IMG/VR virus record: IMGVR_UViG_3300044716_000090
Coordinates: 40,813-104,812 of that record
DNA from: a virus
Taxonomy: Duplodnaviria > Heunggongvirae > Uroviricota > Caudoviricetes > Crassvirales
Length of the DNA stretch: 64,000 nt
Strand: one strand, 5' to 3'
In this document: piece by piece, positions 1 through 18,367 of the stretch
Numbering within the stretch: the stretch's first letter is position 1
Layout of the letters: each line of letters starts with the position of its first letter
Translations under genes and position numbers: made by a program
The notes under the pieces: generated by a model
What the model saw: only the letters and a program-made list of their open reading frames with translations
Database searches by the model: none
Told to the model about the DNA's origin: nothing

Positions 1-3000
1 TCATGATATTCTGTACCTCTCTGAGCTCCTTTAAAGAACTTAGCCACACCATTCTCAAACGCTCCCCATGCTTTCTCTGTATCATTGATGCTAATAACAT
101 TCTCTAATATCTCATAAGGGATATTGCTAGCGTTCTTAGCATGCCATTCTTTGAACAATGCGATCTCAGAATCATTGATTCTAGCTACATCTGTTCTACC
201 CACTCTTCTGTATTCAGGACCACCAATGTTAATGTTCTTAGGTTGATCTAAAGACTCTGTAGAAGTAACCACTGCAGGTCCAGCTTCTGTACCATAAGGA
301 GTTGTTTGTGTAACTGTAGCAGCTGTTGTAGGAGCAGCTTTTCTTTCACTTAACAACTTAGCTGTGATGAACTCAGCAGCAAACTTAGCAGCAGTTTCAA
401 TAGGCTCATCTAACTCATCAAACTTACCTAGGTCTTTAAGTTGTTGTGTAGCCATAGCTAATAACTCTGGGCTATCAGCAATCTTTTTAATGTTTGGATT
501 TTCACCAACCAACTCTACAACAAAGTCACCTTTACTGTCTGTAGTAACTGTATATGTAACATCACCTACATTAGACTTATAAGTCTTAACATCAGATTCT
601 GCAGGTTTAGCCACAGACTGTGTAGGAAGCTCTAAGCCATTTAGGATGATGTATTTTTGTTTGTGTGTGTAAGGAACAGCCTCTGTAGCCTTAACTACAT
701 TAGTAGTTAATGGAGCTGTACGTGCAGATCCATCAGGATTCTTGCTAGCTAATAAATAAGATTGATAGTTCTTCCAGAATCTTTGTGCAAGCACACCATC
801 AGAACCTACGTACATTTCTACAAATGGCTCACCCAATCCTAAGTTAACTGTAAAGCTATTTACGTTATGGAATATCCCTTGTAGGTTACTCATCATACGC
901 TCTTCTGACTTTTCTAGATTAGCAAAGTCATATGTATTCTCTCCAATATGTAATATAGAACCTTCTATATAAATACGATTATTACTACCTTCACCAACAC
1001 CTTTAGCTACAGCTTCTGCGTTTGTGTAGAATGTAATACCCTGTAAAAATCTTTTGTGTATCTCTCTAAACTTAACTGGCTTCTTAGCAGCAATTTGTAG
1101 CTTAGCATCAGCAGACATAGCTTTGAGTACATTGTATACTGCTGCAGCTTGGTCTTTAGTTAATGGAGAATTGTTTAAGAACTCTAATGTATCTTGACTT
1201 TGGAATACAGGTCTGCCATTAGGGAAGGTATAAGATACACCATCTACATGGTCAATTGCTCCTTGTGTAACAACCTTTATAACTTGTTGTGTAGCAATTT
1301 GATTCTCAGGAATAAGGATATCACCTACAGCTTTTTTAACATCATCTGTAACAGCAATACCTTTAGATGGAGTGAAGTCAAACACTTGATAGCTATCTGC
1401 AGAAGCACTCATCAATTGATCACGATACGCTTGGTATCCAGCTAACTCTGCATTAGCTTGTTCTTCTTGACCAGCTCTATATCTAGGCTCACCTTTACTA
1501 TTAGTTAACTTAGCAGCAGGCATGCTTGTAAACACCACCTTGTTTAAATCAACTTGCTCACCCACCTTACCAATAGGATTACCATTCTTATCTATGAATT
1601 GTCTTTCACCTTTCTTATCTTCTACAAACACAAGACCAATGAATCCTTCAATAGGATCATTCAATAGGTCTGTATCAAAGTTACCTTCTCTAAAAGATAA
1701 TGCACCTAAGCCAGATAGTCCTAGGGCAGCTTCTTGTTTCTGAGAGACAATAATAGCTTTGATGTTCTTCCTATTCTTGAAGTCTTTTACTTTGTTTATG
1801 AATTCATTGTAACGTGTAACGTTAGGGGCTAATGTTTTACTCCAATCTATAGAAGCAGAAGAAGAGCTTGTAAATAATATACTTGCATCTTTCTTAGGAG
1901 TTTCTTTAGAAGAAGGAGTGTTCATTAGATCCTCATCATTCATGCCCGTAGGCACAACTCCAGATGTAGCAGCTAAGTCAGTTTGAGCAGACTTAATCTT
2001 ATCTGCTGCAGCACTCATCTTATTTCTATTAGCTTGAAGATCAGCTTGTTGCTTTAAATAATCTTCTGCACGCACACTAAACTCTGCTTCAATAGCATCA
2101 ATTAATGCTGCATTGTTTAATGAGTTAATATAGTTTAATTTATCTTCTTCCTCAGGAACAACAATACCGGCAAACTCTGGTTTAGATAAAACGTTATCAA
2201 TAGTAGAGTCCATGATATCTCTTAACTCTGGAGATTCTGCACCTTCTTCAGCTAAGTTTAAATTCTTAAATTGTTCAGGACTTAAGAAAGTTATATTACC
2301 CGTAGGCATTTGTACCTCAAGTTCACCACCAAGTGTTTGTGATAACACTTTAATCTTAGGTGATAGAGTGAGTGTATTATCTTCTTTTGTAACAGGTTGT
2401 TTTAAATAATAATCTTTACCAATCTCTAGCTTTCTTTCTTTTGTACCAGGGAACAATTCTATTTGCTCACCTGGTTCAGCAGCAACAGGTTCTTCTCCTT
2501 GCTCCACTGTAACAGGCACTTCTTCTGTAGCACCAAACTCTACAATAGACTTACGTTGGAAGTCTTCAGGTTTATTTTTAATAGCATCGTATTCATCAAT
2601 GAATAACTTTCTACGTAAAGACATTTCTATTACATCAGACAAGTTAGTCTTTAATTCATCCTTAATATCAGAAGTTACATCAAGCTCATTGATTTGCTCA
2701 ATAGCTTTATCTGTAGCTTCTTTGTTTGGTTTAAAGTCCTTAAGGATAGATTGTAATATATCATAAGTATTAACACCAACAGCTGTTAAGGTGTTGTTCA
2801 CTTGAGGGATACGTAAGTCATAGTTTGCCACTTTAGCAGAGGCATATACTAATTTATCAATTACATCAGAAGAATACTTCTTAGTACCATCTTCATTCTG
2901 TACACCAGAATATCTTAAGTCAAGTGCTTTATACAGTTCATTTGTATAGTTTGCCACCTTTTCAAATGTAGCAAGTCTTGCCTGGAAGGATTCTTTTGTG

Positions 3001-4847
3001 TCATTGATGTTAGCAATTCCTTGCTCTTTCAATGCACTAAGTCCTTCTTCAGTCAAAGATTCCATCTGTAGGTCATTGATATCATCTTTGACCATATCAA
3101 ATCTACCATACTTAACACGTGTAGCTAAATAGTTGTGCATTAAATCAGCATCAATATCTTTAGCTTCTAACTTATCTCCTTGAATTACAGCATCTTGTTG
3201 TTGCTGTTGTAAAATGTTAGCTCTGTTTACAGAGTTCATTCTGTCAACAAATGCTTGTTTGAAACCAGGAGTTGAGTTTAACTGATTTAAAAAAGCAGTA
3301 GTGTTATTTTTTAATTGTTTTGCTTGTTGGATATTAGCTTTAGTCTGCATTAGTCCTCCAGTGATACCACCAAGAGCAATGCTCTCCATACCCTCTTTAG
3401 AAACTAAAGCACCAACACCTTCACCATACTTATCTGTTCCAAATAAGCCATATAAGAATCCATCAACTAATACATCAGCATTATCTGATTGGAATGCTTT
3501 GTTATAATAGTTTTGTGTACCAACTTGTAATGCGTATTGTAATCCTTCTTGAGCTGCCTCTTTAGGATCAAATACATATCTACTCACACCTTTAACTCTA
3601 TCAGCAACTTTACCAAACTTAGTTGTAGCTTCTTTAGCTACATATTTACCATCTTTTAATACAACATCATCTGTTCTACCTAACAAACTATTTGCAGCTT
3701 GTTTACTAGATGAATAGTTAGAACCTAATAACTTAGGAAGTTGTACATATTCTGTAGCAGATAGAAGAGCTAAGTTACCAAAGAAAGAGGCTTTACCAAT
3801 CTTATCAGCTTTAGCATCAATATCTCTTAATGTATCAGCATCTGGTTGAGTACCAGTTTTGTCTATATGTTCTTCAATTAATCTATCTCTATATTCTTTG
3901 GCTGTACCTAAAGCTTCAAAAGAAGCCTCACCTGCAGAAGAGTAGGCAGCAACAGCTGTACGTCTTGCTGTGTTACCAAAGTTAGCAAATTGATTTGTAG
4001 TTTTTGCAAGGTCTCCAAGTTTAGAGGTTCTTGCAGTTAAATCAGCAATAGAAGAAATCTCTTTCTCCAACACTGCTGCAGCCTCAATATTCTTAGCATT
4101 ACTAAAAGCTCTTGCTGTGTTTCTTAATAATGGAGTGAATAATTTAAATGCTTGAGAAGACTCAGCAGCTGTAGCACCAGCCATAGCAGCTTTACCCAAA
4201 CCTTGACCTGCTTTTAACAAACCTGTATTTGCAATATTACCTGTTACCATAGCACCAACAGCAAACCCAGAGTTCTTAATTAACTTATCAAATAAGAAGT
4301 TAGCTTTGAACCAGTTGTCCGTAGAATACCAAGCAGCATTCTTTTCAGCATCTGTATAATAGTTAGGAAGATATTCTTGGTCCACTTTATTGTTCCAAGC
4401 ATCTAATCCTCTAGTAGCCTCATTATCCCATATATCAGCAAGTCTTCCAGTGAATGGAGATTTAACAGCACCATATAACATACCAAAGCTACCAGCAATA
4501 GTAGTACCTGCTAAGTTTAATCCTTTCAATAAACCATTGGCAGCTTTATCAGATACAGATTGTCCATAGGCTGCAAAGTCTTCATAGTTAGGAATAGTGG
4601 GATTGAATTCTCTATAACGCTTGTTTGCATCTAATTCTGCATTAGTTACATATACACCTTTTTCAACAGGATTAGAAGCAGCAGAAGCTTTCTTTAATCT
4701 ATCCATCACTCCTTCTGTACCACTAAAATCTTGGTTAGATATTTGTGAAGCAGTTTGAGGAACACTAATGCTACGCTGAGTCATATCAATTGACTTAGGC
4801 GCATTAGGAATTATTTTTGGTGTAAGGTCTTTATTAAAATCAGGCAT
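1..4847 (-). CDS. Giant virion/ejection protein, partial; N-terminus at 4847, C-terminus beyond the left window edge (more than 1600 aa)
   Basis: Hand translation of the reverse strand from ATG at 4847-4845 gives MPDFNKDLTPKIIPNA and stays open. Plus-strand ORFs in 1-4850 are all under 90 aa. It lies directly downstream of the 857-aa gene on the same strand. Confidence 0.55.
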   Translation of the reverse strand, partial: MPDFNKDLTPKIIPNAPKSIDMTQRSISVPQTASQISNQDFSGTEGVMDRLKKASAASNPVEKGVYVTNAELDANKRYREFNPTIPNYEDFAAYGQSVSDKAANGLLKGLNLAGTTIAGSFGMLYGAVKSPFTGRLADIWDNEATRGLDAWNNKVDQEYLPNYYTDAEKNAAWYSTDNWFKANFLFDKLIKNSGFAVGAMVTGNIANTGLLKAGQGLGKAAMAGATAAESSQAFKLFTPLLRNTARAFSNAKNIEAAAVLEKEISSIADLTARTSKLGDLAKTTNQFANFGNTARRTAVAAYSSAGEASFEALGTAKEYRDRLIEEHIDKTGTQPDADTLRDIDAKADKIGKASFFGNLALLSATEYVQLPKLLGSNYSSSKQAANSLLGRTDDVVLKDGKYVAKEATTKFGKVADRVKGVSRYVFDPKEAAQEGLQYALQVGTQNYYNKAFQSDNADVLVDGFLYGLFGTDKYGEGVGALVSKEGMESIALGGITGGLMQTKANIQQAKQLKNNTTAFLNQLNSTPGFKQAFVDRMNSVNRANILQQQQQDAVIQGDKLEAKDIDADLMHNYLATRVKYGRFDMVKDDINDLQMESLTEEGLSALKEQGIANINDTKESFQARLATFEKVANYTNELYKALDLRYSGVQNEDGTKKYSSDVIDKLVYASAKVANYDLRIPQVNNTLTAVGVNTYDILQSILKDFKPNKEATDKAIEQINELDVTSDIKDELKTNLSDVIEMSLRRKLFIDEYDAIKNKPEDFQRKSIVEFGATEEVPVTVEQGEEPVAAEPGEQIELFPGTKERKLEIGKDYYLKQPVTKEDNTLTLSPKIKVLSQTLGGELEVQMPTGNITFLSPEQFKNLNLAEEGAESPELRDIMDSTIDNVLSKPEFAGIVVPEEEDKLNYINSLNNAALIDAIEAEFSVRAEDYLKQQADLQANRNKMSAAADKIKSAQTDLAATSGVVPTGMNDEDLMNTPSSKETPKKDASILFTSSSSASIDWSKTLAPNVTRYNEFINKVKDFKNRKNIKAIIVSQKQEAALGLSGLGALSFREGNFDTDLLNDPIEGFIGLVFVEDKKGERQFIDKNGNPIGKVGEQVDLNKVVFTSMPAAKLTNSKGEPRYRAGQEEQANAELAGYQAYRDQLMSASADSYQVFDFTPSKGIAVTDDVKKAVGDILIPENQIATQQVIKVVTQGAIDHVDGVSYTFPNGRPVFQSQDTLEFLNNSPLTKDQAAAVYNVLKAMSADAKLQIAAKKPVKFREIHKRFLQGITFYTNAEAVAKGVGEGSNNRIYIEGSILHIGENTYDFANLEKSEERMMSNLQGIFHNVNSFTVNLGLGEPFVEMYVGSDGVLAQRFWKNYQSYLLASKNPDGSARTAPLTTNVVKATEAVPYTHKQKYIILNGLELPTQSVAKPAESDVKTYKSNVGDVTYTVTTDSKGDFVVELVGENPNIKKIADSPELLAMATQQLKDLGKFDELDEPIETAAKFAAEFITAKLLSERKAAPTTAATVTQTTPYGTEAGPAVVTSTESLDQPKNINIGGPEYRRVGRTDVARINDSEIALFKEWHAKNASNIPYEILENVISINDTEKAWGAFENGVAKFFKGAQRGTEYH

Positions 4848-4855
4848 TACTATAA

Positions 4856-7429
4856 TTATTGGTAGGTTCTTCTAATTTCATCTTTCAAAGACTGAGGCAC
4901 TCTATCACTTTGCAAAAAGATATTTAATATATCGTTATCTGTAAATTTGGATATCTCAGCTTGAGCATTTTTAATATCTAGAGGTATATCATCTAACTGT
5001 AAATTCTTCCAACCAGAAGGTAACTTTAAGTTTAAGTTTAGATAGTTTAGTGCACTCATTTGATCCTTCTGTAGATCCCCTGTAACAGAAACTCTTTTTG
5101 TGTTAGAGAATGCTCTAGGCTGGAAGTATGACTTTCTAGGATCATTTGATGGGTTGGTGTTACCATCAAAGTGTTGTTGCACTTCTCTGATATTTTCTTC
5201 CTCATATGTTAAGTCTGTATTAGACTTAGGTAATTGACTAATCAATGTTGGTATTAAAGGAATAACTATTTCTTCACTACCCTTCTGCATTACTAAAAAC
5301 TTCTTATCTCCTTGAGTGAGTTTAGAATACATGATGCTTCCTTTATCTTTACCAATCAACCAGTTTTTAGCAGAGGCTGCTTGGTCTGTGCTTAATTCAG
5401 CAGCACCTCCAGGTTGAGAACCTGCCACACCTGTATAAGTGTTAAGGGCCATGTTAGCAAGAGTTTCTAATCTTTCTCTAGACTGAGCACCATCTTTACC
5501 TGAAACAATGATAGCCTGCATCTTAGGAATGTACTTACCAGTCTTTTCTAACAGTGAGTTTCTGAAAGTATCATCAAAAGTCTTTTTGCTATTTTCAAAC
5601 TGTTGAAGAATAGGTCTGTGTCTAGTGATGAGAGCATTTATTGTACGAGCAGCTTCTGGATTCTTAGAGCTGTTTTCTAATATATTATAGATTTCTTTCT
5701 CTTTACCATTTAAAGTTTTAGGATCTATATAATCCATTTGAGCTCCTTTGAACTTAAGGTCTTCCGCAGACTTTCCTGTAACTCTCTTAACTTTAGCAAC
5801 AAAGTCAGCAATCTCTTTATTTGTAAAGCTAACAACATTACCACTTGATGTTCTTATATTAGCACCTGGTAATTGAGCAACTGCTCTATTGTAAGCTTCT
5901 CTAGAAGCCATCACCTTTGGATCGTTGCTAACTTCTTTTTCAGTTTTAGTTAATAATGCATCAAGTCTATCAGCTTGTAACAAGTTTTCAACAGCCATGT
6001 CAGCCTTACCCCTATAGTCTACATTGATTTTATTTTTATCACCATTTTGATAGGCTGTTAATTTGTTCTGTGCTTCAGACAAACTAATTCCTAACTTATT
6101 TGCATAACTTTTAACAAAGTCATTATATTGAGACTTATATTCATCTCTGTCTTGTTGAATAGCAATAACAGGATCTTTTACTTGTGTAGATGTTCCAAGA
6201 TAGGTTTCAATACCACCAACATCACCATACACACTCTTTATCTGAAGATCAAGTTTTTGTTTTTCAATAGTGAGGTTTTGAGTATCCATAAACTTATCCC
6301 AAGAGAACTTTTGTTCAGATAAAGCTTGACTTCTCTTCCTTAGATTAAGATCTTCCACCTTAAACTTATAGTCTTGGTATGGATTATCTAAGATTTGTTT
6401 CTTTCTTTTCTCCCAAGAAAAGGCTTCAGCAAATGAATTAATAAACCCATTCTTGTAAATTTCAGCCTTAGCTTCATCAGGATTCTCAGTAACATATTTT
6501 AGCTCTCTAGCTAATTGTTCTGGTAAAGCAGATTTCTTATCTTTTAACTCTTGGATTGCATCTAATGTTTTATTATATTCTTCAGTGTCAGACTTACTAG
6601 CATTAGCATGTCCTTCCAACTTAGTAATCATTTCATTATATGAATCTTCTGTATTTTTGAATCTATCTTTAGCCACTCTACTTAAATCTTCAGGAGTAGC
6701 ATTTCTAAACTGATACCTACCTGATATAGCCAATTGATTAAGATCTGTAGGAGTCAAAGATGTGTTGATAGCATTTTGGATTTGGGTTGCTGTTACAGCC
6801 TCACCACTTATCCTAGTCATTACAGCTGCAATCTTTCCAACATTAACTGTACCATCAGCATTCATCTCCCAAGGAATATCTTCCTCTCTAACATTAGGAT
6901 TAATCTTACCAATCACATCTGTCATAATCTTCTTTCTAACATCAGTGTAAGGAGTGTATCTACCTCTAAATACTTGACCAGCTTTATCAGAAGATAACCA
7001 AGAATTAGCTTGTTTGTTAAAATCTTCAATGTTCTCTACAGAAGATTTACCATCTGCAATTGCTTTCTCCATCTCAGTTAGTTGTTTTCTATACCAAGCT
7101 GTAGAAGAAACAGCATTTTGAACATTTCGATCTTTGACAATTTGAGTAGCCATACCTCCAACAGAATTAACCAATTGTTGATTGGAGAAGTCACCAGCTG
7201 CTACTGTCTTCAAATTATTACCCAGTTGATTTAACTTTGATTGTAGATATTTTTTATCTGCATCATTAGCAACATCCATTCCAGCTATGTTGTCTATATA
7301 GCCTTGGATCTTTTGTACACCTTGGTCATATTGGGCTTGCTTTTGCATGCCAACTTGAACCATTGCCTCAATAGGCAATTGTTGTACGTAGGGGTTAAAT
7401 TGTGATATTTGGTCGGTAAATGAAGCCAT
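4856..7429 (-). CDS. Large virion protein (857 aa), coiled-coil rich, function unknown
   Basis: Long ORF in the six-frame track within a co-directional structural gene run. Lys/Glu/Gln-rich heptad-like composition. Confidence 0.7.
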   Translation of the reverse strand: MASFTDQISQFNPYVQQLPIEAMVQVGMQKQAQYDQGVQKIQGYIDNIAGMDVANDADKKYLQSKLNQLGNNLKTVAAGDFSNQQLVNSVGGMATQIVKDRNVQNAVSSTAWYRKQLTEMEKAIADGKSSVENIEDFNKQANSWLSSDKAGQVFRGRYTPYTDVRKKIMTDVIGKINPNVREEDIPWEMNADGTVNVGKIAAVMTRISGEAVTATQIQNAINTSLTPTDLNQLAISGRYQFRNATPEDLSRVAKDRFKNTEDSYNEMITKLEGHANASKSDTEEYNKTLDAIQELKDKKSALPEQLARELKYVTENPDEAKAEIYKNGFINSFAEAFSWEKRKKQILDNPYQDYKFKVEDLNLRKRSQALSEQKFSWDKFMDTQNLTIEKQKLDLQIKSVYGDVGGIETYLGTSTQVKDPVIAIQQDRDEYKSQYNDFVKSYANKLGISLSEAQNKLTAYQNGDKNKINVDYRGKADMAVENLLQADRLDALLTKTEKEVSNDPKVMASREAYNRAVAQLPGANIRTSSGNVVSFTNKEIADFVAKVKRVTGKSAEDLKFKGAQMDYIDPKTLNGKEKEIYNILENSSKNPEAARTINALITRHRPILQQFENSKKTFDDTFRNSLLEKTGKYIPKMQAIIVSGKDGAQSRERLETLANMALNTYTGVAGSQPGGAAELSTDQAASAKNWLIGKDKGSIMYSKLTQGDKKFLVMQKGSEEIVIPLIPTLISQLPKSNTDLTYEEENIREVQQHFDGNTNPSNDPRKSYFQPRAFSNTKRVSVTGDLQKDQMSALNYLNLNLKLPSGWKNLQLDDIPLDIKNAQAEISKFTDNDILNIFLQSDRVPQSLKDEIRRTYQ

Positions 7430-10500: not shown

Positions 10501-10713
10501 TTGTTCACCACCCATGTATGTACCCACCTGAGCTTGAGGAGGATTAGCAAAGTCAGTCAATTGTGTCAACTGTCTTTTTACCATAGCTTTACCCATAGCA
10601 GCTTTCTTCAAAGATTTACCATGCTTAGCCATAAATGCTTCTTCTGTAGGAAACTTCTTGTAGAATTCCTTTTCAGATTTAACTCCTGCGATCTTAAGGA
10701 TTTGATCTTTCAT
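7516..10713 (-). CDS. Large internal virion/ejection-like protein (1065 aa) with a Gly/Asn/Gln/Pro-rich low-complexity segment
   Basis: Long ORF. Residues about 115-235 are low complexity (NSNNKGGGNKD ... GGQGGAGGN). Sits among tail and giant-protein genes. Confidence 0.7.
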   Translation of the reverse strand: MKDQILKIAGVKSEKEFYKKFPTEEAFMAKHGKSLKKAAMGKAMVKRQLTQLTDFANPPQAQVGTYMGGEQDVTDGVAFADIYDNLDYQTTGMTNDMRNERAATEAQQQMAANSNNKGGGNKDIENIGKIANVAMMAMRKGGNVPKLQWGPNQPLMGGGPTGVPGSPANPSAGMYPIQPGGNPSNPQIQQGFAYSPGGQGGAGGNELLNTVASYAPGAEQLVGNFQKIQGAIRARQQSNQFVGVSGLTKEAAGTRGEISKRRYVRPEDMRFDQNQMNRPRGEGTNYLAEDGAMIGGNPTEIQNTYAPNSIYTDLEYTPLRNTNIKQFQAGGFADTFNNPIMAGVNIATDLTTAIMNAGTRKRNEQGFQNLGMSALQQGAQQIQNQNSGFMEEGGWVSHDWQPQVIATFGEHKLKDLLKPPHDAEMLRAGGHLKEYTPPSAAAMSTERPDFQMGGELQTHWGGYTEPVSENPYLPDGGITYMPRGNYHSQSDGKGNTGIGITFGDNPVEVERGEPMVKLEDGGTGEKNLMVLGALDIPNYALADLNKNAKGKKFKTYGTELTKNTTKQNKMVEKATDKLNDLEVLTPFDNLEMNSLQAQILGGNMKLKDIAVETQKLGTLQQAIHDASEEFGYSDVAKFNKDVKANRVQIGNSQPDKQSAQKGGKFKIKGSGKYPLDYSPLGQTENPIFTAGRYETEWKPKVEEAFSDPTSAKEIIKSIENYTGEGAEAAKKELAKAKTFEEKVKRAKYLATDSRVGVYHDIMNNIIDKLTPKKTETKPPVTEPSITDVISPIVPITTGTEEKGDVPKKYSWQDIYNTVLPYVRPSNQLELDPTQLSGEMFALSANQVEPVFAQSYKPMLSTPFDISLQDQLNANQADYNATQRMVGYNPAALSQLNAQKYAANSAVLGQQTRLNQAERARVYEANRNILNDAQLKNIGIYDQQMVRQSQALSNTKAQTQAALNSISDKYSRNRLENRTAGVYENLYNYRYDNRGRAINVNPLQRFNIPDVGSVDDLTENEKTRIKDYYEKIVSRDKTGNITGSKEKTGSTTVKRNGNIVKAIKNL

Positions 10714-12162: not shown

Positions 12163-13028
12163 TACTTGTAAGAGATTTGAGCAGGTGTGATAATGAATTG
12201 ACTTATTAAATGGGCATCTGATCTATCATCAAGGATGTGTCTCACCTTTAAATCCTTCGCACGTAGGGGTTCCTTTTTAAATGAACGTTTGCCATAATCC
12301 ATATTAGGTTGATTTACAATCTTATCTACAGATAATGAGTCACAACCAGTCACAAACAAAGGTACGGATTTATCTTTAACCAATGACCAGAATGTATTAT
12401 ATTGATAAAAATTATCTGATTTGGTAAACGTAATTGTCTTACTCTCAGCGTTATATACAGGATACTTCATGTATTCCTTGAGGTTGTTAATTGGCTTAGG
12501 AGCTAGTTCTAATATACCAGAAGACTGTTGTCCATTGTATAGAACAGCTTTATTGAAATAAACTGTGTTTGTTTCTATCTTAGCGTTATCATTAAACACA
12601 CCATCAGGGATAGGTAGGTATTTATATGCCTTAGTGTAATCCTTTACATTCTGTAAGATTTCATCAAAATACTCATAAGCAAATGGATACTCAATAACAT
12701 ATGGTTCTGTGTTTCCGTAGAACGTGTTGTAAATCATTGTATTAGTTAAATGTCTCCACAATGATGGGGTGTTTGTAGGAATAAACTCAATAGCTGCTAT
12801 ATCCGCAATACATAGTTCCTCTATAGGCATTTGTAATCTTGTCTTACATTTTCCTATAGATTCAATAATAATAACAGTAACATCATCACTCACCGAATAT
12901 GTAATTCCAGAAATAACTTGGCTCCTAGGAATGTTAGTTCCTAAGACATTTCCGTAATTATCAGAAATCTTAAACGGTCCAGTTCTAACACCAGCCTTTG
13001 TTAATTTTATTGTTATTACTTTAGACAT
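12162..13028 (-). CDS. Hypothetical structural protein (288 aa)
   Basis: ORF in track, co-directional, start overlaps the next gene. Confidence 0.6.
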   Translation of the reverse strand: MSKVITIKLTKAGVRTGPFKISDNYGNVLGTNIPRSQVISGITYSVSDDVTVIIIESIGKCKTRLQMPIEELCIADIAAIEFIPTNTPSLWRHLTNTMIYNTFYGNTEPYVIEYPFAYEYFDEILQNVKDYTKAYKYLPIPDGVFNDNAKIETNTVYFNKAVLYNGQQSSGILELAPKPINNLKEYMKYPVYNAESKTITFTKSDNFYQYNTFWSLVKDKSVPLFVTGCDSLSVDKIVNQPNMDYGKRSFKKEPLRAKDLKVRHILDDRSDAHLISQFIITPAQISYK

Positions 13029-13039: not shown

Positions 13040-16000
13040 TTACGAAAGACATTGTTCTACAGCTGTTCCACCAGATAAAGTACAATCTGGTGCAGATGTT
13101 GTTGTTGTTGTTGTGGTTGGTGGTACAGTAGTTGTGGTTGTAGTAGTTGGAGGTATAGTTGTAGTAGTAGTAGTAGTTGGACTTGGACAGTTAGTAAATC
13201 CTGTTGCTGTAATTGCATACAATGTACCACCTGGATCTGTTGTTATAGATCCTGTAACTACCCACGTAATACCTGGAGAAGTTACCCTATCATTAATTGC
13301 AAATGTTCCAAATGGATACTCTTGAGAGTATGATATAGAGCTATTTGCACAGTTTGTTATTTGGTACCACACAGACAATGCGGTAGTAGTGGTAGTTGTT
13401 GTAGGAGTAGCTCCACAAGCTGTTGTACAATCAGCGTTTGATGGAGCTCCATCTAAATCAACATCATATGTTGGTCCAGATACTACAGTTTGAATTTGGT
13501 ATGTAAATGAGCCCACCTTATAATATAAGCCATCAATTGTTGATAATGAAGTACTTGATCTACCCACTACATCAGGTAATACACGATTACAGTTATCATT
13601 ACAATCAAATTTTCTGAGCGAATAGTAATAATACGTTATTGCAGTAGTGGTAGTAGTTGTTGTTGGTACAGGTGGGATTGTAGTAGTAGTGGTTGTTGTA
13701 CTGCTACTAGAACTTGTAGTTGTTGTAGTGGTTGGTGAAACAGTTGTGGTAGTAGTAGTTGTACTAGAACTAGTTGTTGTAGTTGTAGTGGTTGGACACT
13801 GTTCTACAGCTGTACCAAATACACAACAAGGATCAATTGCTGTACCCTCTAATGTACAATCTACACATAAGTCAACTGCTGTACCCACTAATCTACAATC
13901 TATTGTTGTTGATGTGGTTGTTGTGGTTGTGCAATTAGGAAGCTCAGAGAAAGCAATTGCTTCTAGGTCACATCCACCATTCAATCCAGAATAGAAGAAG
14001 TTATTCTCAGCAATGTAGAAGTTAGGAATGTAGCTATGGAAGCTTATCCAACTCTTTGTATTCATGCTGAATGATAGAGTCCATGACTTATTACAGAAGT
14101 ATTCTTGGTCATAAACACTAACGGTTGTCTTCAATGTGCTACCACCTAGCACTCTTTCTACATAGAATTCCTTAGTTGTAGCATCGTATTTGATGTTCTT
14201 ACTATTAGGAATATAATCTAGTTTAGATATAATAACCCTGTCATACTTACTATCAAACACTCCATGTAAGCCAATACCATTGTAATGGTTATCTACATTT
14301 ACATTAGGGAAGTGACGTAAGATTTCAAATGCTAAATGGTCTGTAAAGAACTTATTAAGTCCTGAACCAAATGCTGACAAATCTGTAGCTTGGTTACCTG
14401 CAATTAAGAACACTTGTCCTCTCTTAGCATCTACAGTGATTTGTCCTTGAGGAATCTTTAACAACATCTTATTCTGACTTCCTACATATCCAAGGTCTGT
14501 TTCTGCAAAGTCAATTGGAGGAGCACTCTTGAATAATGTATCGTTTCCTAGGTAGGCAGCTTGTGGATTGCTAGTTTGAACTGTAAGCATTGTATTGTAT
14601 AACAATGACTTGTTCTCAAATCTAGCTAACACAGCTTTGTTCTGAATACCATCTAATGATACAAGATTACCAAAGTTTTGAGGGAAATCAAAGAATGATG
14701 TAGCTCTGTAGATTAACCAGCTATTCACTCTGTTATCAGCATACACATCCTGAGGATCTGAATAAACAGCTCTGAATGGATACTTAGTGTAACAAAGTTG
14801 TTCTGCCCAATCTGCAGGAAGATGTGTAAATGTATTCTCTTTGTTTTGTTTAGAATACGTTACATTATAATAATATGTATTATCAAAAGCAATAGGCACC
14901 ACTGATTCCTGTAACCAGTTATCAGGAATACCAGAGCTCACGTGTGGGAAGAAGTCACCTTCTAAACTATTAAATGCTTGACGTAAGTCTACATTTATAG
15001 AAGATTCACAATAGAAAGAAGGAATACCATAAGCAAATAGATACATCTTTCCATCATAGAAAGTTCTATTAGGATTTACTATAGCAGGTCTAAAAGGAGT
15101 TGCTCTACGTGGTTCAGGATTTTGGTTATTAGGACAGTCAAAGTTATGAGCCTTATAAGAAATCATATTCTTTAACACCTCACCAGTACTTAATGTATAA
15201 TCTTGTAACACTGATCTAGCTGAGTGCCAGTATTGTGGATAACCCACATTACCCACCTCATCATAGAATATATCACTATCATCAGGAGCATTCACCCTAT
15301 CATCAAAGAAGAAAGGTAATTTGGTCTTAAATGCAAACCTACTAATAAATGTATCTCCACCAAACATAGTGGCTGATTTAGGGGTAGAGAACATTAAATT
15401 GTTAATGTCAATACTTTCCTGGAATCCTGTATCAATTGTATCATAAGAGTATATCTGACCCCATTGGTTAACAAATATATTCTTTAATGATCCATAGTAA
15501 GAAACTACATTGATAGATTCATTCTTACTAGGTACAGAACAGTTGTTCTTTTGTGATATTGTAAATCTTGATGTATCAGAGATACCACTTACACCACCAA
15601 CTAATAAACTATTAGTTTGATTAGGGAATGGTAAAGGTATTACAGATGAACCATCTCTAGTGCCAATTGTTTTTAGGTATACAGATGATTCTCTATTATA
15701 GTTATTAAAATCATGTAAATCAGCTACAGACTGCACACCTGGTATAACGTATTGATACTTATCTAGTTGTCTTTGTTTGATTCCTAGATTGTTATCAATA
15801 GCTCCACTGTAATCATAACTAGCTATTGAGTTAAATGAATAAGCATAGTTTCTTCTGGTGATTCCATTTATGTAAATTGTTAGGTATGCCTGATATGCAG
15901 CAAACATAGCTGATGCACTAAATGGTGTTGTTATACGACCAATACCCTCACTAGATTGAAGAGCATCACGCTGAGCCTCTGCTGTAAGAAGCTTATACAT

Positions 16001-18367
16001 TGCGTTCTTCTTAACTTCTACAAAGTGAGCTATACCAGCACCAAACATTACATTCTCTAACTTAAGAATAGATCCTAAGAAAGGTTGTCCAAAAGAAGTT
16101 TCAGGTGAGTTAAATACCATTCTGTACTTAGACTCATCTGTAGCAAACGCATCTAATTTATCAGGATGGCAAAGTGAGTTCTTTGTTGCATTTATAGTGA
16201 TACTATAACTAGCTGTTCCAGATAAGTAGATAGGATTGGATACTGAGTTAACTTGTTGTAATCCATTACCAGTAACTGTAATTTGTCTAAATACAGTTGT
16301 TAATGGATCTTGGTATTGAAACACTGTACTATTAGCACTAGTAAGGTTATAAGTATTATAATTAACTACAGAGATTGTAGCTGCTCCACTTACAATTACA
16401 GGAGTGCTTAATGAACATATTTTATTTGTAGTTCCAAAAATTAACGTTTCAGTTTTTGTTGCATTTGAAAAACAATCTGTATATTGTACTACAGTTGCTG
16501 TAGTGGTAATTATATTATATGTAATACACTGATCAAGATAGCCATTATTATTCTCAAGAATAAACTCATCCTTATTAAGATCGTTATATGGATAGTTAGG
16601 GAAATAGAATTCTGTTTCTTCTCTTTTGTATTTACCTACGTTTCTAAGGATACCCTTAGCCACAATAGATTTGTTTGTACCTCTATCTCCTCTTACAATC
16701 TTAAATCCTGCAATGCTTTCTTTCTGTGCTTGTGTAAGATTAGATGAATACACCAAGTATGAAACTTGTTGAACATCAATCTTTACACCCATTGGAAATA
16801 CAGCATCACTTTGCATCACTGGAGAAAATCCTGACCCTAGTGTGTATGTAGGACTTTCAAATATAGGACTTACTAATACATCAGGAAACTTGTGATGTCT
16901 AATAGGTTGACCAGCAAGATTTCCCCATACATCTATGTTACATGGATAGGTGTCTGTTGATTCCCAATAAGCAAACTCACCATATTGGTAAGGTCCTTTG
17001 TATGATTGATCTGTTGTGTATCCAGGAGAAAACGATGTTACTGAACCTGTGTTATAAATCTTCCAATAAGGAGCACTTGTTCCTTCTCCAATAAAATCAG
17101 GATTAGTACTAGGAACATCTGGTTGAGAACCTTCGTTAGCACTAATCATTCTACCTGGAATGTGGAAACCATCTGTTTGCTTACCATTACTTAATAGAAA
17201 CACTATCTCAAAAGCATACACTTCATCTCTTAGATAACCTCTAAGGTTTGTAGCATTTAGCTCATCAGCATAAGTTTCTGTACTAGGGATTCTATATGTT
17301 TCCCATTTAAGATCAATTTGGCTAGCAATCTGTTGATAGTTAATTCTATCAATAGAAGTTAAGTTATCCCAGATAAGGATATCTTGTGCAGTGGTTAAGT
17401 CTTGAGCTACCTCATAGTAAGGATATTTCTCAAATATGTCAGCAATTGTAAGACGAATCTGTGTAACATTCTGTCCTGTATAAGTTATCTCTCTAGTGTT
17501 ATCTTCTATAAAATATGTTCCAATCAACTCTACAGAAGATATACTGTTTACTGTTTTAATTACAGCAATATTAAAATAATCAAATTTTCCAGTGGTATCT
17601 AAATTAGCAACACTAACTATAATAGATTTACCCACTTGATAGTTAAAATCTAGTGTGGTAACTTGTGTGTCAGCAATAGGTGTAGGGTTGGTAATAGAAT
17701 AGTAAGATGTAAATGGATTACCAGCAGCATCACAATATTGGATGGCAAACTGATATGTACCAGCAGTGAGGTCACCACCATTTCTAACATCAGTTACATC
17801 TAATGAAGGAATGCTAAAATTAGGCTGAACGTTTAATTGATTGCAATCAAGTTCAGTGGTGTAAATAGGATTACACAAATCAGCATTAGGAGCTAGTTTA
17901 TATGGAACATTATTTAGGTCTATATATCTTCTAGGATTAAGACCATCTGTCCAATACACCTCTGTAGTGCAGTTTGTAATCTTGTGAACAGCTTTAAGAA
18001 TAGGATAGTTTATATCAAAGTTTAAACAAGGTGCACTAACCAATATACGGTAGATGCAATCATTGTTATCCATATATCCAATGTGGCTATCTCCCGTTTC
18101 AGGATTAACTAGAAAGAATATGTGTTTGTTCTTTTCAACAATGAAATGAGTTCCTATTAAATGGAAGTTTGTAGGAAAGTTTAGACATAGCTCGTTCCCT
18201 GGCTCATTCTGATAGTTTACAGAATCTGAGTCAAAGTTCTCAACAGATGCATTTAATGCATAAGTTAGCTTACCTTTAGGAACCTGATTTACAGATTGAT
18301 CTAAATTTAAGCCAGCAGTAGCATTGTTATACTCTTGTTTAATATTAGTTGTTTCTTCTCCAGCCAT
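13040..18367 (-). CDS. Giant tail fibre/adhesin-like protein (1775 aa) with a C-terminal region of poly-Thr/Ser linkers and repeated Cys-bracketed CxLxGTA[VI]xxC motifs
   Basis: ORF in track. The C-terminal 330 aa contain several T7-T10 tracts and the motifs DCRLVGTAVDLC, DCTLEGTAIDPC, CVFGTAVEQC and DCTLSGGTAVEQC. The DNA repeat gttctacagctgt occurs near 13048 and 13805. Confidence 0.75.
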   Translation of the reverse strand: MAGEETTNIKQEYNNATAGLNLDQSVNQVPKGKLTYALNASVENFDSDSVNYQNEPGNELCLNFPTNFHLIGTHFIVEKNKHIFFLVNPETGDSHIGYMDNNDCIYRILVSAPCLNFDINYPILKAVHKITNCTTEVYWTDGLNPRRYIDLNNVPYKLAPNADLCNPIYTTELDCNQLNVQPNFSIPSLDVTDVRNGGDLTAGTYQFAIQYCDAAGNPFTSYYSITNPTPIADTQVTTLDFNYQVGKSIIVSVANLDTTGKFDYFNIAVIKTVNSISSVELIGTYFIEDNTREITYTGQNVTQIRLTIADIFEKYPYYEVAQDLTTAQDILIWDNLTSIDRINYQQIASQIDLKWETYRIPSTETYADELNATNLRGYLRDEVYAFEIVFLLSNGKQTDGFHIPGRMISANEGSQPDVPSTNPDFIGEGTSAPYWKIYNTGSVTSFSPGYTTDQSYKGPYQYGEFAYWESTDTYPCNIDVWGNLAGQPIRHHKFPDVLVSPIFESPTYTLGSGFSPVMQSDAVFPMGVKIDVQQVSYLVYSSNLTQAQKESIAGFKIVRGDRGTNKSIVAKGILRNVGKYKREETEFYFPNYPYNDLNKDEFILENNNGYLDQCITYNIITTTATVVQYTDCFSNATKTETLIFGTTNKICSLSTPVIVSGAATISVVNYNTYNLTSANSTVFQYQDPLTTVFRQITVTGNGLQQVNSVSNPIYLSGTASYSITINATKNSLCHPDKLDAFATDESKYRMVFNSPETSFGQPFLGSILKLENVMFGAGIAHFVEVKKNAMYKLLTAEAQRDALQSSEGIGRITTPFSASAMFAAYQAYLTIYINGITRRNYAYSFNSIASYDYSGAIDNNLGIKQRQLDKYQYVIPGVQSVADLHDFNNYNRESSVYLKTIGTRDGSSVIPLPFPNQTNSLLVGGVSGISDTSRFTISQKNNCSVPSKNESINVVSYYGSLKNIFVNQWGQIYSYDTIDTGFQESIDINNLMFSTPKSATMFGGDTFISRFAFKTKLPFFFDDRVNAPDDSDIFYDEVGNVGYPQYWHSARSVLQDYTLSTGEVLKNMISYKAHNFDCPNNQNPEPRRATPFRPAIVNPNRTFYDGKMYLFAYGIPSFYCESSINVDLRQAFNSLEGDFFPHVSSGIPDNWLQESVVPIAFDNTYYYNVTYSKQNKENTFTHLPADWAEQLCYTKYPFRAVYSDPQDVYADNRVNSWLIYRATSFFDFPQNFGNLVSLDGIQNKAVLARFENKSLLYNTMLTVQTSNPQAAYLGNDTLFKSAPPIDFAETDLGYVGSQNKMLLKIPQGQITVDAKRGQVFLIAGNQATDLSAFGSGLNKFFTDHLAFEILRHFPNVNVDNHYNGIGLHGVFDSKYDRVIISKLDYIPNSKNIKYDATTKEFYVERVLGGSTLKTTVSVYDQEYFCNKSWTLSFSMNTKSWISFHSYIPNFYIAENNFFYSGLNGGCDLEAIAFSELPNCTTTTTTSTTIDCRLVGTAVDLCVDCTLEGTAIDPCCVFGTAVEQCPTTTTTTTSSSTTTTTTTVSPTTTTTTSSSSSTTTTTTTIPPVPTTTTTTTAITYYYYSLRKFDCNDNCNRVLPDVVGRSSTSLSTIDGLYYKVGSFTYQIQTVVSGPTYDVDLDGAPSNADCTTACGATPTTTTTTTALSVWYQITNCANSSISYSQEYPFGTFAINDRVTSPGITWVVTGSITTDPGGTLYAITATGFTNCPSPTTTTTTTIPPTTTTTTTVPPTTTTTTTSAPDCTLSGGTAVEQCLS

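What the first reader, a model, noticed from the sequence alone, without database searches (positions are those of the whole stretch)
1..18367. Run of four consecutive giant virion proteins (1775 aa, 1065 aa, 857 aa and more than 1600 aa) at the distal end of the structural operon
This arrangement matches the cargo/ejection protein block of crAss-like and other large podoviruses. In those phages one of the giant proteins carries a virion-packaged RNA polymerase with a DxDGD-type catalytic site. The truncated more-than-1600-aa ORF is a candidate for that role, but I could not verify the catalytic motif by eye.
Basis: inference. Interest (0 to 1): 0.55.

Follow-up and report, generated by a model that had tools for sequence, protein, structure and literature searches.

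The report
CrAss-like muzzle, cargo and polymerase genes
This is the tail-tip ("muzzle"), ejected-cargo and virion RNA-polymerase gene block of an environmental crAss-like phage. It is a known kind of module, and the polymerase active site lies beyond the edge of the window.

Summary
The large ORFs are real, but they are not four consecutive giants and not all are cargo. On the minus strand of 1-18367 there are six genes: 1775, 288, 476, 1065, 857 and more than 1615 aa.

The context is a crassvirus-type structural operon: TerL, portal, Crass_capsid, Ring 3/4, R2, IHF-like, R1.

- **1775 aa:** the tail muzzle protein (Pfam crAss_MUZ, 84 bits on the N-terminal 400 aa), an external tail part, not cargo.
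- **1065 aa:** a probable but unproven counterpart of cargo protein 1.
- **857 aa:** a widespread, mostly helical family with no solved-structure match and no RNA polymerase (RNAP) fold.
- **Truncated ORF:** 3720 aa in a contig 99.86% identical to the window. Residues 1 to about 1770 resemble crAss001 gp47. Residues 2386-3181 match the phi14:2 gp66 virion RNAP (PDB 6VR4, E=1.3e-23), with DFDID at 2920-2924.

However, the window holds only its non-polymerase N-terminal 1615 residues, so no catalytic motif lies inside the window.

Fusions of these proteins are already reported. This is a new member of a known kind, with minor variations: an HExxE zincin-like motif and a split muzzle C-terminus.

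The parts
13040..18367 (-). 1775-aa muzzle protein (counterpart of crAss001 gp44 and phi14:2 gp71). The N-terminal ~1500 aa are conserved and the C-terminal ~300 aa are variable.
   Evidence: The N-terminal 400 aa hit Pfam PF25731 crAss_MUZ at E=8.6e-24, 84 bits against a cutoff of 27. BLASTP aligns residues 102-216 with crAss001 gp44 89-198 at E=9e-7. PHROG 37948 and 15100 are 'virion structural protein' families. More than 2580 homologues were found, some with varied C-terminal beta-propeller or EGF-like domains. The gene lies directly after R1.
17357..18331 (-). crAss_MUZ-matching region of the muzzle protein (residues 13-337)
   Evidence: It matches model positions 4-319 of 1224. Only the N-terminal part of the model is recognisable.
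12162..13028 (-). 288-aa protein homologous to the C-terminal domain of one-piece muzzle-like proteins; encoded here as a separate gene
   Evidence: BLASTP aligns residues 89-288 with Lbo-JY46 1654-aa protein residues 1462-1654 at E=8e-24. PHROG 15100 positions 1589-1781 of 1783 match at E=9e-16. Relatives have the same 288/289-aa gene after the muzzle.
10732..12162 (-). 476-aa accessory protein, Gly/Lys-rich, with an N-terminal Cys4 motif and three 'GGWLNK[FY]' repeats; a variable slot in relatives
   Evidence: Sequence. Residues 262-330 are 43% identical to Lbo-JY46 495-aa protein residues 10-84. Relatives carry 169-aa or HNH 173-aa genes at this position. No Pfam or PHROG hit.
7516..10713 (-). 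1065-aa probable ejected cargo protein, a possible cargo protein 1 (crAss001 gp45) counterpart. The N-terminal ~450 aa are largely disordered and Gly/Gln/Pro-rich; the core from residue 360 to 1065 is conserved.
   Evidence: 1134 representative homologues. The AF2 model has pLDDT 61, with residues 49-454 mostly below 50. hhalign aligns residues 446-556 with gp45 420-507, the portal-bound domain, at E=2.9e-4 and probability 40%. The Pfam crAss_CARG1 HMM does not hit. No DxDxD motif. No PDB fold match.
9046..9378 (-). Candidate CARG1-like (portal-binding) domain of the 1065-aa protein, residues 446-556
   Evidence: hhalign. Shared pattern: GG.L.T..GG / G.T / G.SH.E / GI.I / VE.GE / IP. The region is beta-rich with pLDDT about 80 in the model.
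4856..7429 (-). 857-aa conserved protein, a probable ejected or internal virion protein of unknown fold
   Evidence: 2726 or more homologues of nearly constant length, about 855-870 aa. The AF2 model has pLDDT 80 and is mostly helical. Foldseek against the PDB finds nothing below E=0.4. Foldseek against BFVD matches the phi17:2 structural protein at 1.6e-10 and phi14:2 gp70, a 593-aa structural protein, at 3.4e-3. The N-terminal 350 aa are homologous to the Lbo-JY46 845-aa protein (hhalign 99%). hhalign to crAss001 gp45 and gp46 is negative.
1..4847 (-). First 1615 codons of a 3720-aa giant ORF that joins a gp47/gp67-like module, a zincin-like module and a two-barrel virion RNAP. The RNAP part is outside the window.
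2238..4700 (-). Module A (residues ~50-870): the conserved N-terminal region shared with crAss001 gp47, phi14:2 gp67 and the Lbo-JY46 1552-aa protein
   Evidence: BLASTP aligns residues 105-780 with gp47 101-844 at E=3e-24, with gp67 at E=9e-4, and with Lbo_1552 at E=4e-13. Conservation across 31 homologues is shown.
4215..4520 (-). Two Gly-rich hydrophobic segments (residues 110-128 and 193-211) with an aromatic-rich loop between them. This is the best-conserved stretch, 45% identical to crAss001 gp47.
   Evidence: tblastn. These are the most hydrophobic 19-aa windows in the in-window part of the ORF. Equivalent segments occur at the same positions in gp47, gp67 and Lbo_1552. Membrane insertion is an inference.
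408..1910 (-). Module B (residues ~980-1480): a variable middle region
   Evidence: It is conserved only among closer relatives.
3..215 (-). Start of module C (residues ~1545-1615 of ~1545-1760): a zincin-like domain. The 'YHEIFE' motif begins at the last in-window codon, H1615.
   Evidence: Alignment. crAss001 gp47 and many homologues have GT.YHEAFH (HExxH); this clade has HExxE. BLASTP aligns residues 1506-1722 with gp47 2049-2290 at E=1e-5.
18345..19268 (-). Tail ring protein 1 (context, just outside the finding)
   Evidence: Pfam CrAss_Ring_1, E=1.5e-10.
19274..19750 (-). IHF-like protein (context)
   Evidence: BLASTP to phi14:2 gp73 'IHF subunit' at E=1e-17 and to crAss001 gp42 at E=1e-5.
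19750..20475 (-). Tail ring protein 2 (context)
   Evidence: Pfam CrAss_Ring_2, E=9e-18.

Best explanation
The region is the distal part of the virion operon of an environmental crAss-like podovirus. After ring proteins R2 and R1 comes the tail muzzle protein (1775 aa), with its C-terminal domain split off as a separate 288-aa gene. Next come a variable 476-aa accessory protein and two conserved internal proteins (1065 and 857 aa). The last gene is a 3720-aa giant, of which only the first 1615 residues are in the window.

The giant joins in one chain what crAss001 encodes as gp47 and gp50, and phi14:2 as gp67 and gp66:
- an N-terminal module with two conserved Gly-rich hydrophobic segments;
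- a variable middle region and a Thr/Ala/Pro-rich linker;
- a zincin-like module (HExxE here);
- a two-barrel RNA polymerase with a DFDID metal site, bridge helix and trigger loop.

Shown here: gene order, the homologies, and the catalytic motif in the near-identical contig.

Inferred from crAss001, phi14:2, T7 and N4 work:
- The 1065-aa, 857-aa and giant proteins are packed in the capsid and tail barrel and leave through the muzzle ahead of the DNA.
- The smaller ones and the N-terminal hydrophobic module of the giant help form or anchor the trans-envelope conduit.
- The polymerase part, whether or not it is cleaved off near the zincin-like module, transcribes the early genes.
For: **Context**
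- TerL, portal, Crass_capsid, Ring 3/4, R2, IHF-like and R1 occur in crassvirus order.

**Muzzle**
- crAss_MUZ at 84 bits, gp44 BLASTP at E=9e-7, and position directly after R1.

**Giant ORF**
- It is 3720 aa in L003, which is 99.86% nt-identical to the window.
- DFDID lies at 2920-2924.
- phmmer matches 6VR4 at E=1.3e-23 over gp66 residues 862-1393 and 1484-1671. This span covers the connector, bridge helix and trigger loop as placed by Drobysheva et al..
- BLASTP aligns the N-terminus with gp47 at E=3e-24, and residues 1506-1722 with the gp47 C-terminus at E=1e-5. The RNAP part matches gp50 at E=4e-27.
- Relatives have the same fused gene, 3688 and 4014 aa.

**Literature**
- gp45, gp46, gp47, gp49 and gp50 are virion cargo proteins (PMC10172136).
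- gp65, gp66 and gp67 are virion proteins that are fused in some phages (bioRxiv 10.1101/2020.03.07.982082).

**Cargo-like traits**
- The 1065-aa protein has a disordered N-terminal half. Some family members carry glycine-zipper or peptidase M15 hits.
- The 857-aa model resembles MS-proven structural proteins of phi17:2 and phi14:2.
Against: - No experimental evidence of packaging or ejection exists for this phage.
- The 1065-aa protein fails the Pfam crAss_CARG1 HMM, and Foldseek did not retrieve the solved gp45 fragment. Its link to cargo protein 1 rests on one hhalign hit (E=2.9e-4, probability 40%), motif similarity and synteny.
- The 857-aa protein has no detectable sequence relation to gp45 or gp46.
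- The hydrophobic segments score only about 1.1 on the Kyte-Doolittle scale, below a usual transmembrane threshold.
- The zincin-like motif lacks the second His, so proteolytic self-processing is doubtful.
- The last 390 residues of the giant, and whatever follows it, were not seen.
Confidence: 0.85

Rival explanations
1. The in-window more-than-1600-aa piece is itself the RNA polymerase, with a divergent catalytic site hidden in residues 1-1615.
For: The ORF is annotated 'putative RNA-polymerase subunit' in crAss001 for its gp47 homologue. One DxDxD string occurs at residue 564, 'DIDAD'.
Against: All similarity to the solved vRNAP maps to residues 2386-3181. phmmer and a 31-sequence profile of the in-window part find nothing RNAP-like in the PDB, only coiled-coil noise. 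The D564 motif is not among the invariant or nearly invariant columns across homologues. The genuine DFDID is at residue 2920.
Confidence: 0.03
2. The giants are tail-length or host-recognition proteins (tape measure or tail fibres) rather than muzzle and cargo proteins.
For: The sizes are large. Parts of the 1065-aa protein and of module B are coiled-coil-like. The C-terminal ends of 1775-aa homologues are variable and adhesin-like (DUF5122 propeller, EGF-like), so the muzzle C-terminus may contact the host surface.
Against: No tape-measure or tail-fibre Pfam or PHROG hit was found for any of them. The crassvirus podovirus-type tail module (ring proteins, muzzle) is present. A separate tail-fibre-like gene lies upstream at 23587..24699. 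The 1775-aa protein passes crAss_MUZ.
Confidence: 0.05
3. The giant ORF is a 'polyvalent protein' toxin or effector carrier of the kind found in phages and conjugative elements. The polymerase would be one of several independent effector modules rather than part of an ejection-coupled machine.
For: Distant homologues of the N-terminal module carry an ART-PolyVal ADP-ribosyltransferase domain after the zincin-like module (P0041, P0050). Domain boundaries differ between phages.
Against: In this phage no effector domain other than the zincin-like module and the RNAP was detected. The gene sits in the conserved cargo slot of the virion operon. The polyvalent-protein and cargo readings are not mutually exclusive.
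Confidence: 0.07

Closest known systems
Bacteroides phage crAss001 tail and cargo block, gp40-gp47 plus gp49/gp50 (Bayfield et al. 2023, PMC10172136)
   Same: The order R2, IHF-like, R1, muzzle, cargo proteins, gp47-like is the same. The muzzle N-terminus, the gp47 N-terminal module, the gp47 C-terminal zincin-like module and the gp50 RNAP core are all detectably homologous.
   Different: Here the gp47-like and gp50-like parts form one 3720-aa ORF on one strand; in crAss001 gp49/gp50 are inverted and separate. There is no gp46 (CARGO2) homologue. The gp45 relation is only borderline. Extra 288-aa, 476-aa and 857-aa genes are present. The zincin motif is HExxE instead of HEAFH. TerL identity to gut crassviruses is only about 27%.
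Cellulophaga phage phi14:2 g074-g065 block with gp66 virion RNAP (PDB 6VR4; Drobysheva et al.)
   Same: The arrangement is collinear: R2, IHF, R1, muzzle (gp71), smaller structural proteins (gp70-68), gp67, gp66 RNAP. The DFDID motif is identical, and homology covers both barrels, the bridge helix and the trigger loop. The 857-aa model resembles gp70.
   Different: gp67 and gp66 are separate genes in phi14:2 and fused here. In phi14:2 the HExxH zincin-like motif is in gp65, downstream of the RNAP, not between the gp67-like and RNAP parts. RNAP identity is about 23%.
Coliphage N4 giant vRNAP gp50 and its ejection cassette gp51/gp52 (PMC13434306)
   Same: Both have a single polypeptide of about 3500-3700 residues with a hydrophobic N-terminal domain, then a polymerase and a C-terminal extension. 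Both are encoded next to smaller ejection proteins in a podovirus.
   Different: The N4 polymerase is a T7-like single-subunit enzyme, whereas this one is a two-barrel (QDE-1/multisubunit-like) enzyme. No sequence similarity was found. The resemblance is architectural (analogy), not membership.
Leptolyngbya phage Lbo-JY46 and Cellulophaga phages phi17:2/phi4:1 (the nearest cultured relatives by TerL and muzzle)
   Same: These give the best TerL match (40% and 32%) and the best muzzle match (34% and 29%). Lbo-JY46 shares the order R2, IHF-like, R1, muzzle, then an 845-aa homologue of the 857-aa protein and a 1552-aa gp47-like protein.
   Different: The Lbo-JY46 2748-aa giant has no DFDxD motif and no BLASTP similarity to the RNAP part. 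None of the seven phi17:2/phi4:1 records appears among the RNAP tblastn hits at E<=1e-5 (this is inferred from the organism counts).

Membership tests
Crassvirus muzzle protein (Pfam PF25731 crAss_MUZ; crAss001 gp44) | Score above the Pfam gathering threshold | tested here: met
   The N-terminal 400 aa of the 1775-aa protein score 84.2 bits against a cutoff of 27, E=8.6e-24. The full-length scan missed it. An 87%-identical homologue, P0175, scores 110 bits.
Crassvirus muzzle protein (Pfam PF25731 crAss_MUZ; crAss001 gp44) | Encoded directly downstream of ring protein 1 | tested here: met
   R1 lies at 18345..19268 and the muzzle at 13040..18367, on the same strand and overlapping by 23 nt.
Crassvirus muzzle protein (Pfam PF25731 crAss_MUZ; crAss001 gp44) | Full five-domain gp44 architecture (ring-joining domain, 7-bladed propeller, two Ig-like domains, large novel domain) | tested here: inconclusive
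   Only model positions 4-319 of 1224 align. The rest matches PHROG 37948 and 15100 only. No structure was predicted for this protein.
crAss-type two-barrel virion RNA polymerase (phi14:2 gp66, crAss001 gp50) | DFDxD metal-binding motif in the second double-psi beta-barrel | tested here: met
   'SGSDFDIDK' lies at residues 2915-2925 of the ORF as read in L003 (99.86% nt-identical to the window) and in L006. It aligns to gp66 1361-1365. It is OUTSIDE the window.
crAss-type two-barrel virion RNA polymerase (phi14:2 gp66, crAss001 gp50) | Sequence homology across both barrels, the connector, the bridge helix and the trigger loop | tested here: met
   phmmer against 6VR4 gives E=1.3e-23, aligning residues 2386-2938 with 862-1393 and 2990-3181 with 1484-1671. 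BLASTP to gp50 gives E=4e-27. This region is outside the window.
crAss-type two-barrel virion RNA polymerase (phi14:2 gp66, crAss001 gp50) | Polymerase domain present within the finding's coordinates (1-18367) | tested here: not met
   The in-window residues 1-1615 have no RNAP similarity. The 857-aa, 1065-aa and 1775-aa proteins have no conserved DxDxD motif, and the first two have no PDB fold match.
crAss-type two-barrel virion RNA polymerase (phi14:2 gp66, crAss001 gp50) | Packaged in the virion and active on early promoters | not testable with these tools
   This needs virion proteomics and in vitro transcription.
crAss001 gp47 / phi14:2 gp67-like RNAP-associated cargo protein | Conserved N-terminal module with paired hydrophobic Gly-rich segments | tested here: met
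   BLASTP to gp47 gives E=3e-24 and to gp67 E=9e-4. tblastn shows 45% identity over residues 115-206. Hydrophobic maxima fall at equivalent positions.
crAss001 gp47 / phi14:2 gp67-like RNAP-associated cargo protein | C-terminal zincin-like module with an HExxH motif (as in crAss001 gp47 'YHEAFH') | tested here: not met
   The module is present (E=1e-5), but the motif is HEIFE (HExxE), as it is in the closest relatives.
Crassvirus cargo protein 1 (Pfam PF25725 crAss_CARG1; crAss001 gp45) | Portal-binding CARG1 domain recognised by the Pfam HMM | tested here: not met
   The 1065-aa protein, its residues 441-650 alone, and 30 family members give no hit. The positive controls crAss001 gp45 (222 bits) and phi14:2 gp70 (41 bits) do hit.
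Crassvirus cargo protein 1 (Pfam PF25725 crAss_CARG1; crAss001 gp45) | Remote homology of the same domain by profile comparison, and by fold | tested here: inconclusive
   hhalign aligns A2 residues 446-556 with gp45 420-507 at E=2.9e-4, probability 40%, with a collinear weaker hit at the C-terminus. Foldseek of the pLDDT-61 model against the PDB did not return the gp45 fragment.
Crassvirus cargo protein 2 (Pfam PF25712 crAss_CARGO2; crAss001 gp46) | Pfam HMM match or profile similarity | tested here: not met
   No window protein hits it. hhalign of the 857-aa and 1065-aa families against gp46 gives E>0.6.
   None was found for any of the six ORFs. A tail-fibre-like hit occurs only upstream, at 23587..24699.
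N4-like (T7-type single-subunit) virion RNAP | Sequence similarity to N4 gp50 or T7 RNAP structures | tested here: not met
   The PDB search of the 3330 available residues returns only 6VR4.

The most novel reading that the evidence does not exclude
In this environmental lineage the crAss-type ejection module, a degenerate zincin-like (HExxE) module and the two-barrel polymerase may function as one uncleaved chain of about 3700 residues. The N-terminal hydrophobic hairpin would anchor the chain at the entry pore. That would be an independent, convergent version of the tripartite N4 vRNAP design, built on an unrelated polymerase fold. It would also sit in a lineage whose nearest cultured relatives by structural genes (Lbo-JY46, phi17:2, epsilon-group crassviruses) show no such polymerase by these searches. 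If so, fusion, fission and loss of the virion polymerase would be an evolutionarily labile trait that could be mapped across this large clade.
Probability: 0.25. Interest if true: 0.5.

Novelty: new member of a known kind. Interest (0 to 1): 0.3.

Why it matters
This assigns roles to a long block of unannotated giant genes in an abundant, uncultured environmental relative of crassviruses: thousands of homologues, none with a source name beyond 'hypothetical protein'. It shows that the crAss-type virion polymerase extends to a lineage only 27-40% identical in TerL to cultured phages.

It also records three smaller points:
- Boundaries in the 'transcription block' vary between phages: gp47-like | zincin-like | RNAP are split at different places in crAss001, phi14:2, Lbo-JY46 and here.
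- The 857-aa family is a well-folded, widespread virion-block protein with no known fold, which makes it a reasonable target for structural work.
- A full-length Pfam scan can miss crAss_MUZ on compositionally biased proteins.

None of this changes current understanding of crassvirus biology.

Tried and rejected
- **Nearest phage DNA:** megablast of window 1-20000 against GenBank phages found no match.
- **PDB by sequence:** phmmer of the 1775-aa protein and of the in-window giant fragment found nothing. Profile searches of the 857-aa, 1065-aa and giant N-terminal families found only calmodulin, ApoE or coiled-coil noise.
- **Pfam and PHROGs on the 3330-aa giant:** nothing.
- **HExxH search in the giant:** none. 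This led to recognising the HExxE variant.
- **Zincin module C against phi14:2 gp65:** hhalign shows no relation. The gp65 protease-like domain reported in the literature therefore cannot be shown to be the same domain.
- **857-aa family against crAss001 gp45 and gp46, and against the 1065-aa family:** hhalign was negative.
- **hmmsearch of the 1065-aa family HMM against crAss001 and phi14:2 proteins:** no gp45 hit.
- **Foldseek against the PDB for both AF2 models:** no significant match, no RNAP fold, and no retrieval of the solved gp45 fragment.
- **Attempts to recover the last 390 residues of the giant and its downstream neighbour:** exact-pattern scans of genome contigs and viral contigs found nothing. 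The metagenome scan gave L006, which stops at about residue 3351.
- **Promoter and terminator consensus scan of 1-20000:** fewer promoter-like and only slightly more terminator-like sites than in shuffles, so uninformative.
- **Transmembrane prediction:** a simple Kyte-Doolittle threshold of 1.5 found no clear helices in the cargo candidates.
Full report
**Observation**

The minus strand of window 1-18367 carries six ORFs:
- 13040..18367, 1775 aa
- 12162..13028, 288 aa
- 10732..12162, 476 aa
- 7516..10713, 1065 aa
- 4856..7429, 857 aa
- an ORF starting with ATG at 4847 that stays open to window position 1 (1615 codons)

With a stop probability of 0.0755 per codon on this strand, ORFs of 857-1775 codons have chance probabilities of 10^-29 to 10^-60. 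The four large ORFs are therefore real and lie at the stated coordinates. They are not strictly consecutive, because the 476-aa and 288-aa genes sit between two of them. The last ORF also does not end the operon inside the window.

**Context**

Upstream on the same strand lie:
- a large terminase (34849..36876) and a portal (32264..34849);
- a major capsid protein that hits Pfam Crass_capsid (28756..30309);
- a Ring 3/4-like protein (26899..27630) and a tail-fibre-like protein;
- ring protein 2 (19750..20475, CrAss_Ring_2), an IHF-like protein (19274..19750) and ring protein 1 (18345..19268, CrAss_Ring_1).

This is the gene order of crAss001 gp40-gp47 and of phi14:2 g074-g065. The plus-strand half of the window is a replication module.

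The phage is only distantly related to cultured ones:
- There is no megablast match to GenBank phages.
- The TerL protein is 40% identical to Leptolyngbya phage Lbo-JY46, 32% to Cellulophaga phi17:2/phi4:1 and about 27% to gut crassviruses.

**The 1775-aa protein is the muzzle**

A full-length Pfam scan found nothing. Homologues 87% identical carried PF25731, so I rescanned the N-terminal 400 residues alone. They hit crAss_MUZ at 84 bits against a cutoff of 27, E=8.6e-24. BLASTP aligns residues 102-216 with crAss001 gp44 residues 89-198 at E=9e-7.

Bayfield et al. show that gp44 forms the hexameric muzzle at the tail tip (PMC10172136). This giant is therefore an external tail component, not cargo.

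Only the first ~320 of 1224 model positions align. The C-terminal ~300 residues vary among more than 2580 homologues, some of which end in beta-propeller or EGF-like domains.

The following 288-aa gene is homologous to the C-terminal ~200 residues of one-piece muzzle-like proteins (Lbo-JY46, E=8e-24; PHROG 15100 positions 1589-1781). The same split is seen in relatives.

**The truncated ORF**

The 857-aa protein is encoded identically on contig JBFDOX010001593.1 (locus L003), where the next gene is called at 3720 aa. L003 is 99.86% identical to window 1-17449 at the nucleotide level. It is 99.8% identical over the 1615 shared residues, so it can stand in for the missing part.

Evidence for the polymerase in the 3330 residues available:
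- One DFDxD motif occurs, 'TKSGSDFDIDK', at residues 2920-2924. A second, more divergent contig (L006) has it at the same position.
- phmmer against all PDB sequences returns one significant hit, 6VR4, the phi14:2 gp66 virion RNA polymerase, at E=1.3e-23. Residues 2386-2938 align with gp66 862-1393, and 2990-3181 with 1484-1671.
- By the coordinates given by Drobysheva et al., this span covers the connector, the DFDID site (1361-1365), the bridge helix and the trigger loop.
- BLASTP also matches crAss001 gp50 at E=4e-27.

The in-window part is a different module:
- Residues 105-780 match crAss001 gp47 residues 101-844 at E=3e-24.
- Residues 1506-1722 match the gp47 C-terminus (2049-2290) at E=1e-5.
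- The N-terminus matches phi14:2 gp67 at E=9e-4 and the Lbo-JY46 1552-aa protein at E=4e-13.

The giant is therefore a gp47/gp67-like protein (about residues 1-1770) fused in frame to a gp50/gp66-like polymerase. Relatives whose 857-aa proteins are 74% and 43% identical have the same arrangement, with giants of 3688 and 4014 aa. [quoted passage not shown] Variable boundaries of the transcription block are also described by Yutin et al. (PMC7886860).

**Anatomy of the in-window part**

Mapping 52 homologues gives four regions:
- **Module A, residues ~50-870.** This is broadly conserved. Its best-conserved stretch, residues 100-230, holds the two most hydrophobic windows in the in-window part of the ORF (110-128 and 193-211). 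They are Gly-rich and separated by an aromatic-rich loop. Equivalent segments occur at the same positions in gp47, gp67 and Lbo_1552.
- **Module B, residues ~980-1480.** This is variable.
- **Linker, residues ~1480-1545.** It is rich in Thr, Ala and Pro.
- **Module C, residues ~1545-1760.**

Aligned with homologues, module C reads 'WG.F..G...........GT.YHE.F[HE]'. crAss001 gp47 and many others have a canonical HExxH (YHEAFH). The window's clade has HExxE (YHEIFE), and a downstream conserved AE.F has become AD.F. His1615 of this motif is the last residue encoded in the window.

The module looks zincin-like, but I could not confirm the fold. It is not detectably related to the HExxH region of phi14:2 gp65. 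It does relate weakly to an HExxH region in the next giant of Lbo-JY46 (E=1.9e-4). That Lbo-JY46 protein has no DFDxD motif and no similarity to the polymerase part.

**The 857-aa and 1065-aa proteins**

Neither contains a DxDxD or HExxH motif.

*857 aa.* This family is large (2726 or more hits) and has a nearly constant length.
- Its AF2 model is good (pLDDT 80, mostly helical).
- Foldseek finds no PDB match below E=0.4.
- In BFVD it matches virus NIOZ-UU157 proteins, the phi17:2 structural protein (1.6e-10) and the phi14:2 593-aa structural protein gp70 (3.4e-3).
- gp70 itself carries a crAss_CARG1 domain.
- Profile comparisons with crAss001 gp45 and gp46 are negative.

*1065 aa.* This family has 1134 representative homologues.
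- Its model is poor overall (pLDDT 61), with residues 49-454 mostly disordered and a confident beta-rich domain at 463-530.
- hhalign aligns residues 446-556 with crAss001 gp45 residues 420-507, the portal-bound domain, at E=2.9e-4 and probability 40%. The motif pattern is convincing, and a weaker collinear C-terminal alignment follows.
- The Pfam CARG1 HMM does not hit this protein or 30 relatives. Foldseek did not retrieve the solved gp45 fragment.
- I therefore call it a probable cargo protein 1 counterpart, with membership unproven.
- A few family members carry glycine-zipper or peptidase M15 hits, as ejection proteins often do.

*476 aa.* This protein has a Cys4 motif and three GGWLNK[FY] repeats, and it occupies a variable slot.

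**Mechanism**

The following is shown here:
- gene order;
- the identity of the ring and muzzle proteins;
- homology of the giant to gp47/gp67 and to the solved vRNAP;
- the conserved catalytic motif in the near-identical contig.

The following is inferred from crAss001 cryo-EM and mass spectrometry, phi14:2 biochemistry and the N4 ejection model:
- The 1065-aa, 857-aa and giant proteins are packed inside the capsid and tail barrel and are expelled through the muzzle ahead of the DNA.
- The smaller proteins and the hydrophobic N-terminal module of the giant contribute to, or dock at, the trans-envelope channel.
- The polymerase then transcribes the early genes.

Whether the giant is cleaved is unknown. 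The module at the junction has lost the second His of HExxH, which argues against a standard zinc protease.

**Comparison and novelty**

The block works like, and is in part demonstrably homologous to, the crAss001 and phi14:2 muzzle, cargo and vRNAP blocks. The resemblance to the tripartite N4 vRNAP (hydrophobic N-terminal domain, polymerase, C-terminal domain) is architectural only.

Everything essential here is already described for crassviruses: a crAss-type operon, giant virion proteins, a DFDxD polymerase, and occasional fusions. This is a new member of a known kind, from a divergent environmental lineage, with minor variations.

It was wrong in three respects:
- The motif could not be found in the window, because it lies outside it.
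- The 1775-aa protein is not cargo.
- The four ORFs are not adjacent.

Noticed in passing
window 12162..13028 (-): The 288-aa ORF corresponds to the C-terminal domain of one-piece muzzle-like proteins (Lbo-JY46 1654-aa protein, PHROG 15100). In this clade the muzzle C-terminus is a separate gene, and the same split is conserved in relatives.
   Followed up: partly
window 10732..12162 (-): The 476-aa Gly/Lys-rich protein has an N-terminal CxC...CxxC motif and three 'GGWLNK[FY]' repeats, one at the extreme C-terminus. Short 'xGGx-hydrophobic' motifs are enriched in this protein, the 1065-aa protein, crAss001 gp45 and phi14:2 gp69/gp70, and are absent from most neighbouring proteins. The slot holds a 169-aa gene or an HNH endonuclease in relatives.
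   Followed up: partly
window 1..215 (-) and beyond the window edge (residues 1545-1760 of the giant ORF): The zincin-like module reads HExxE instead of HExxH, and a downstream AE.F has become AD.F, in this phage and its closest relatives. crAss001 gp47 and more distant homologues keep HEAFH. This could mean metal binding with changed ligands, or a dead protease.
   Followed up: partly
window 13040..18367 (-): A full-length Pfam scan of the Thr/Ser-rich 1775-aa protein returned nothing, whereas its N-terminal 400 aa alone score 84 bits on crAss_MUZ. HMMER filters can hide this family on the whole protein.
   Followed up: yes
L002/L008 (Leptolyngbya phage Lbo-JY46, PP438436.1 62354-105739): This cyanobacterial phage shares the crassvirus-like order R2, IHF-like, R1, muzzle, 845-aa protein, gp47-like protein. 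All of these are annotated as hypothetical. Its 2748-aa giant has no DFDxD motif and no BLASTP similarity to the polymerase. It may be a crAss-like phage without the virion RNAP, or with one too diverged to detect.
   Followed up: partly
window 20475..21725 (-): A 416-aa exonuclease/phosphoesterase-like gene (PHROG 704 'DNA repair exonuclease') sits inside the structural block next to R2. It parallels the calcineurin-like phosphoesterase g075 beside g074 in phi14:2.
   Followed up: no
window 55639..59689 (+): RIIA-like (771 aa) and RIIB-like (524 aa) genes lie in the replication-side module. A PolA-type DNA polymerase (44654..46606), a DnaB-like helicase and a primase are nearby. No tRNA genes occur anywhere in the window.
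   Followed up: no
P0041 and P0050 (distant homologues of the giant's N-terminal module): Some gp47-like proteins carry an ART-PolyVal ADP-ribosyltransferase domain after the zincin-like module. Effector domains therefore appear to be swapped onto this ejected scaffold in other crAss-like phages.
   Followed up: no
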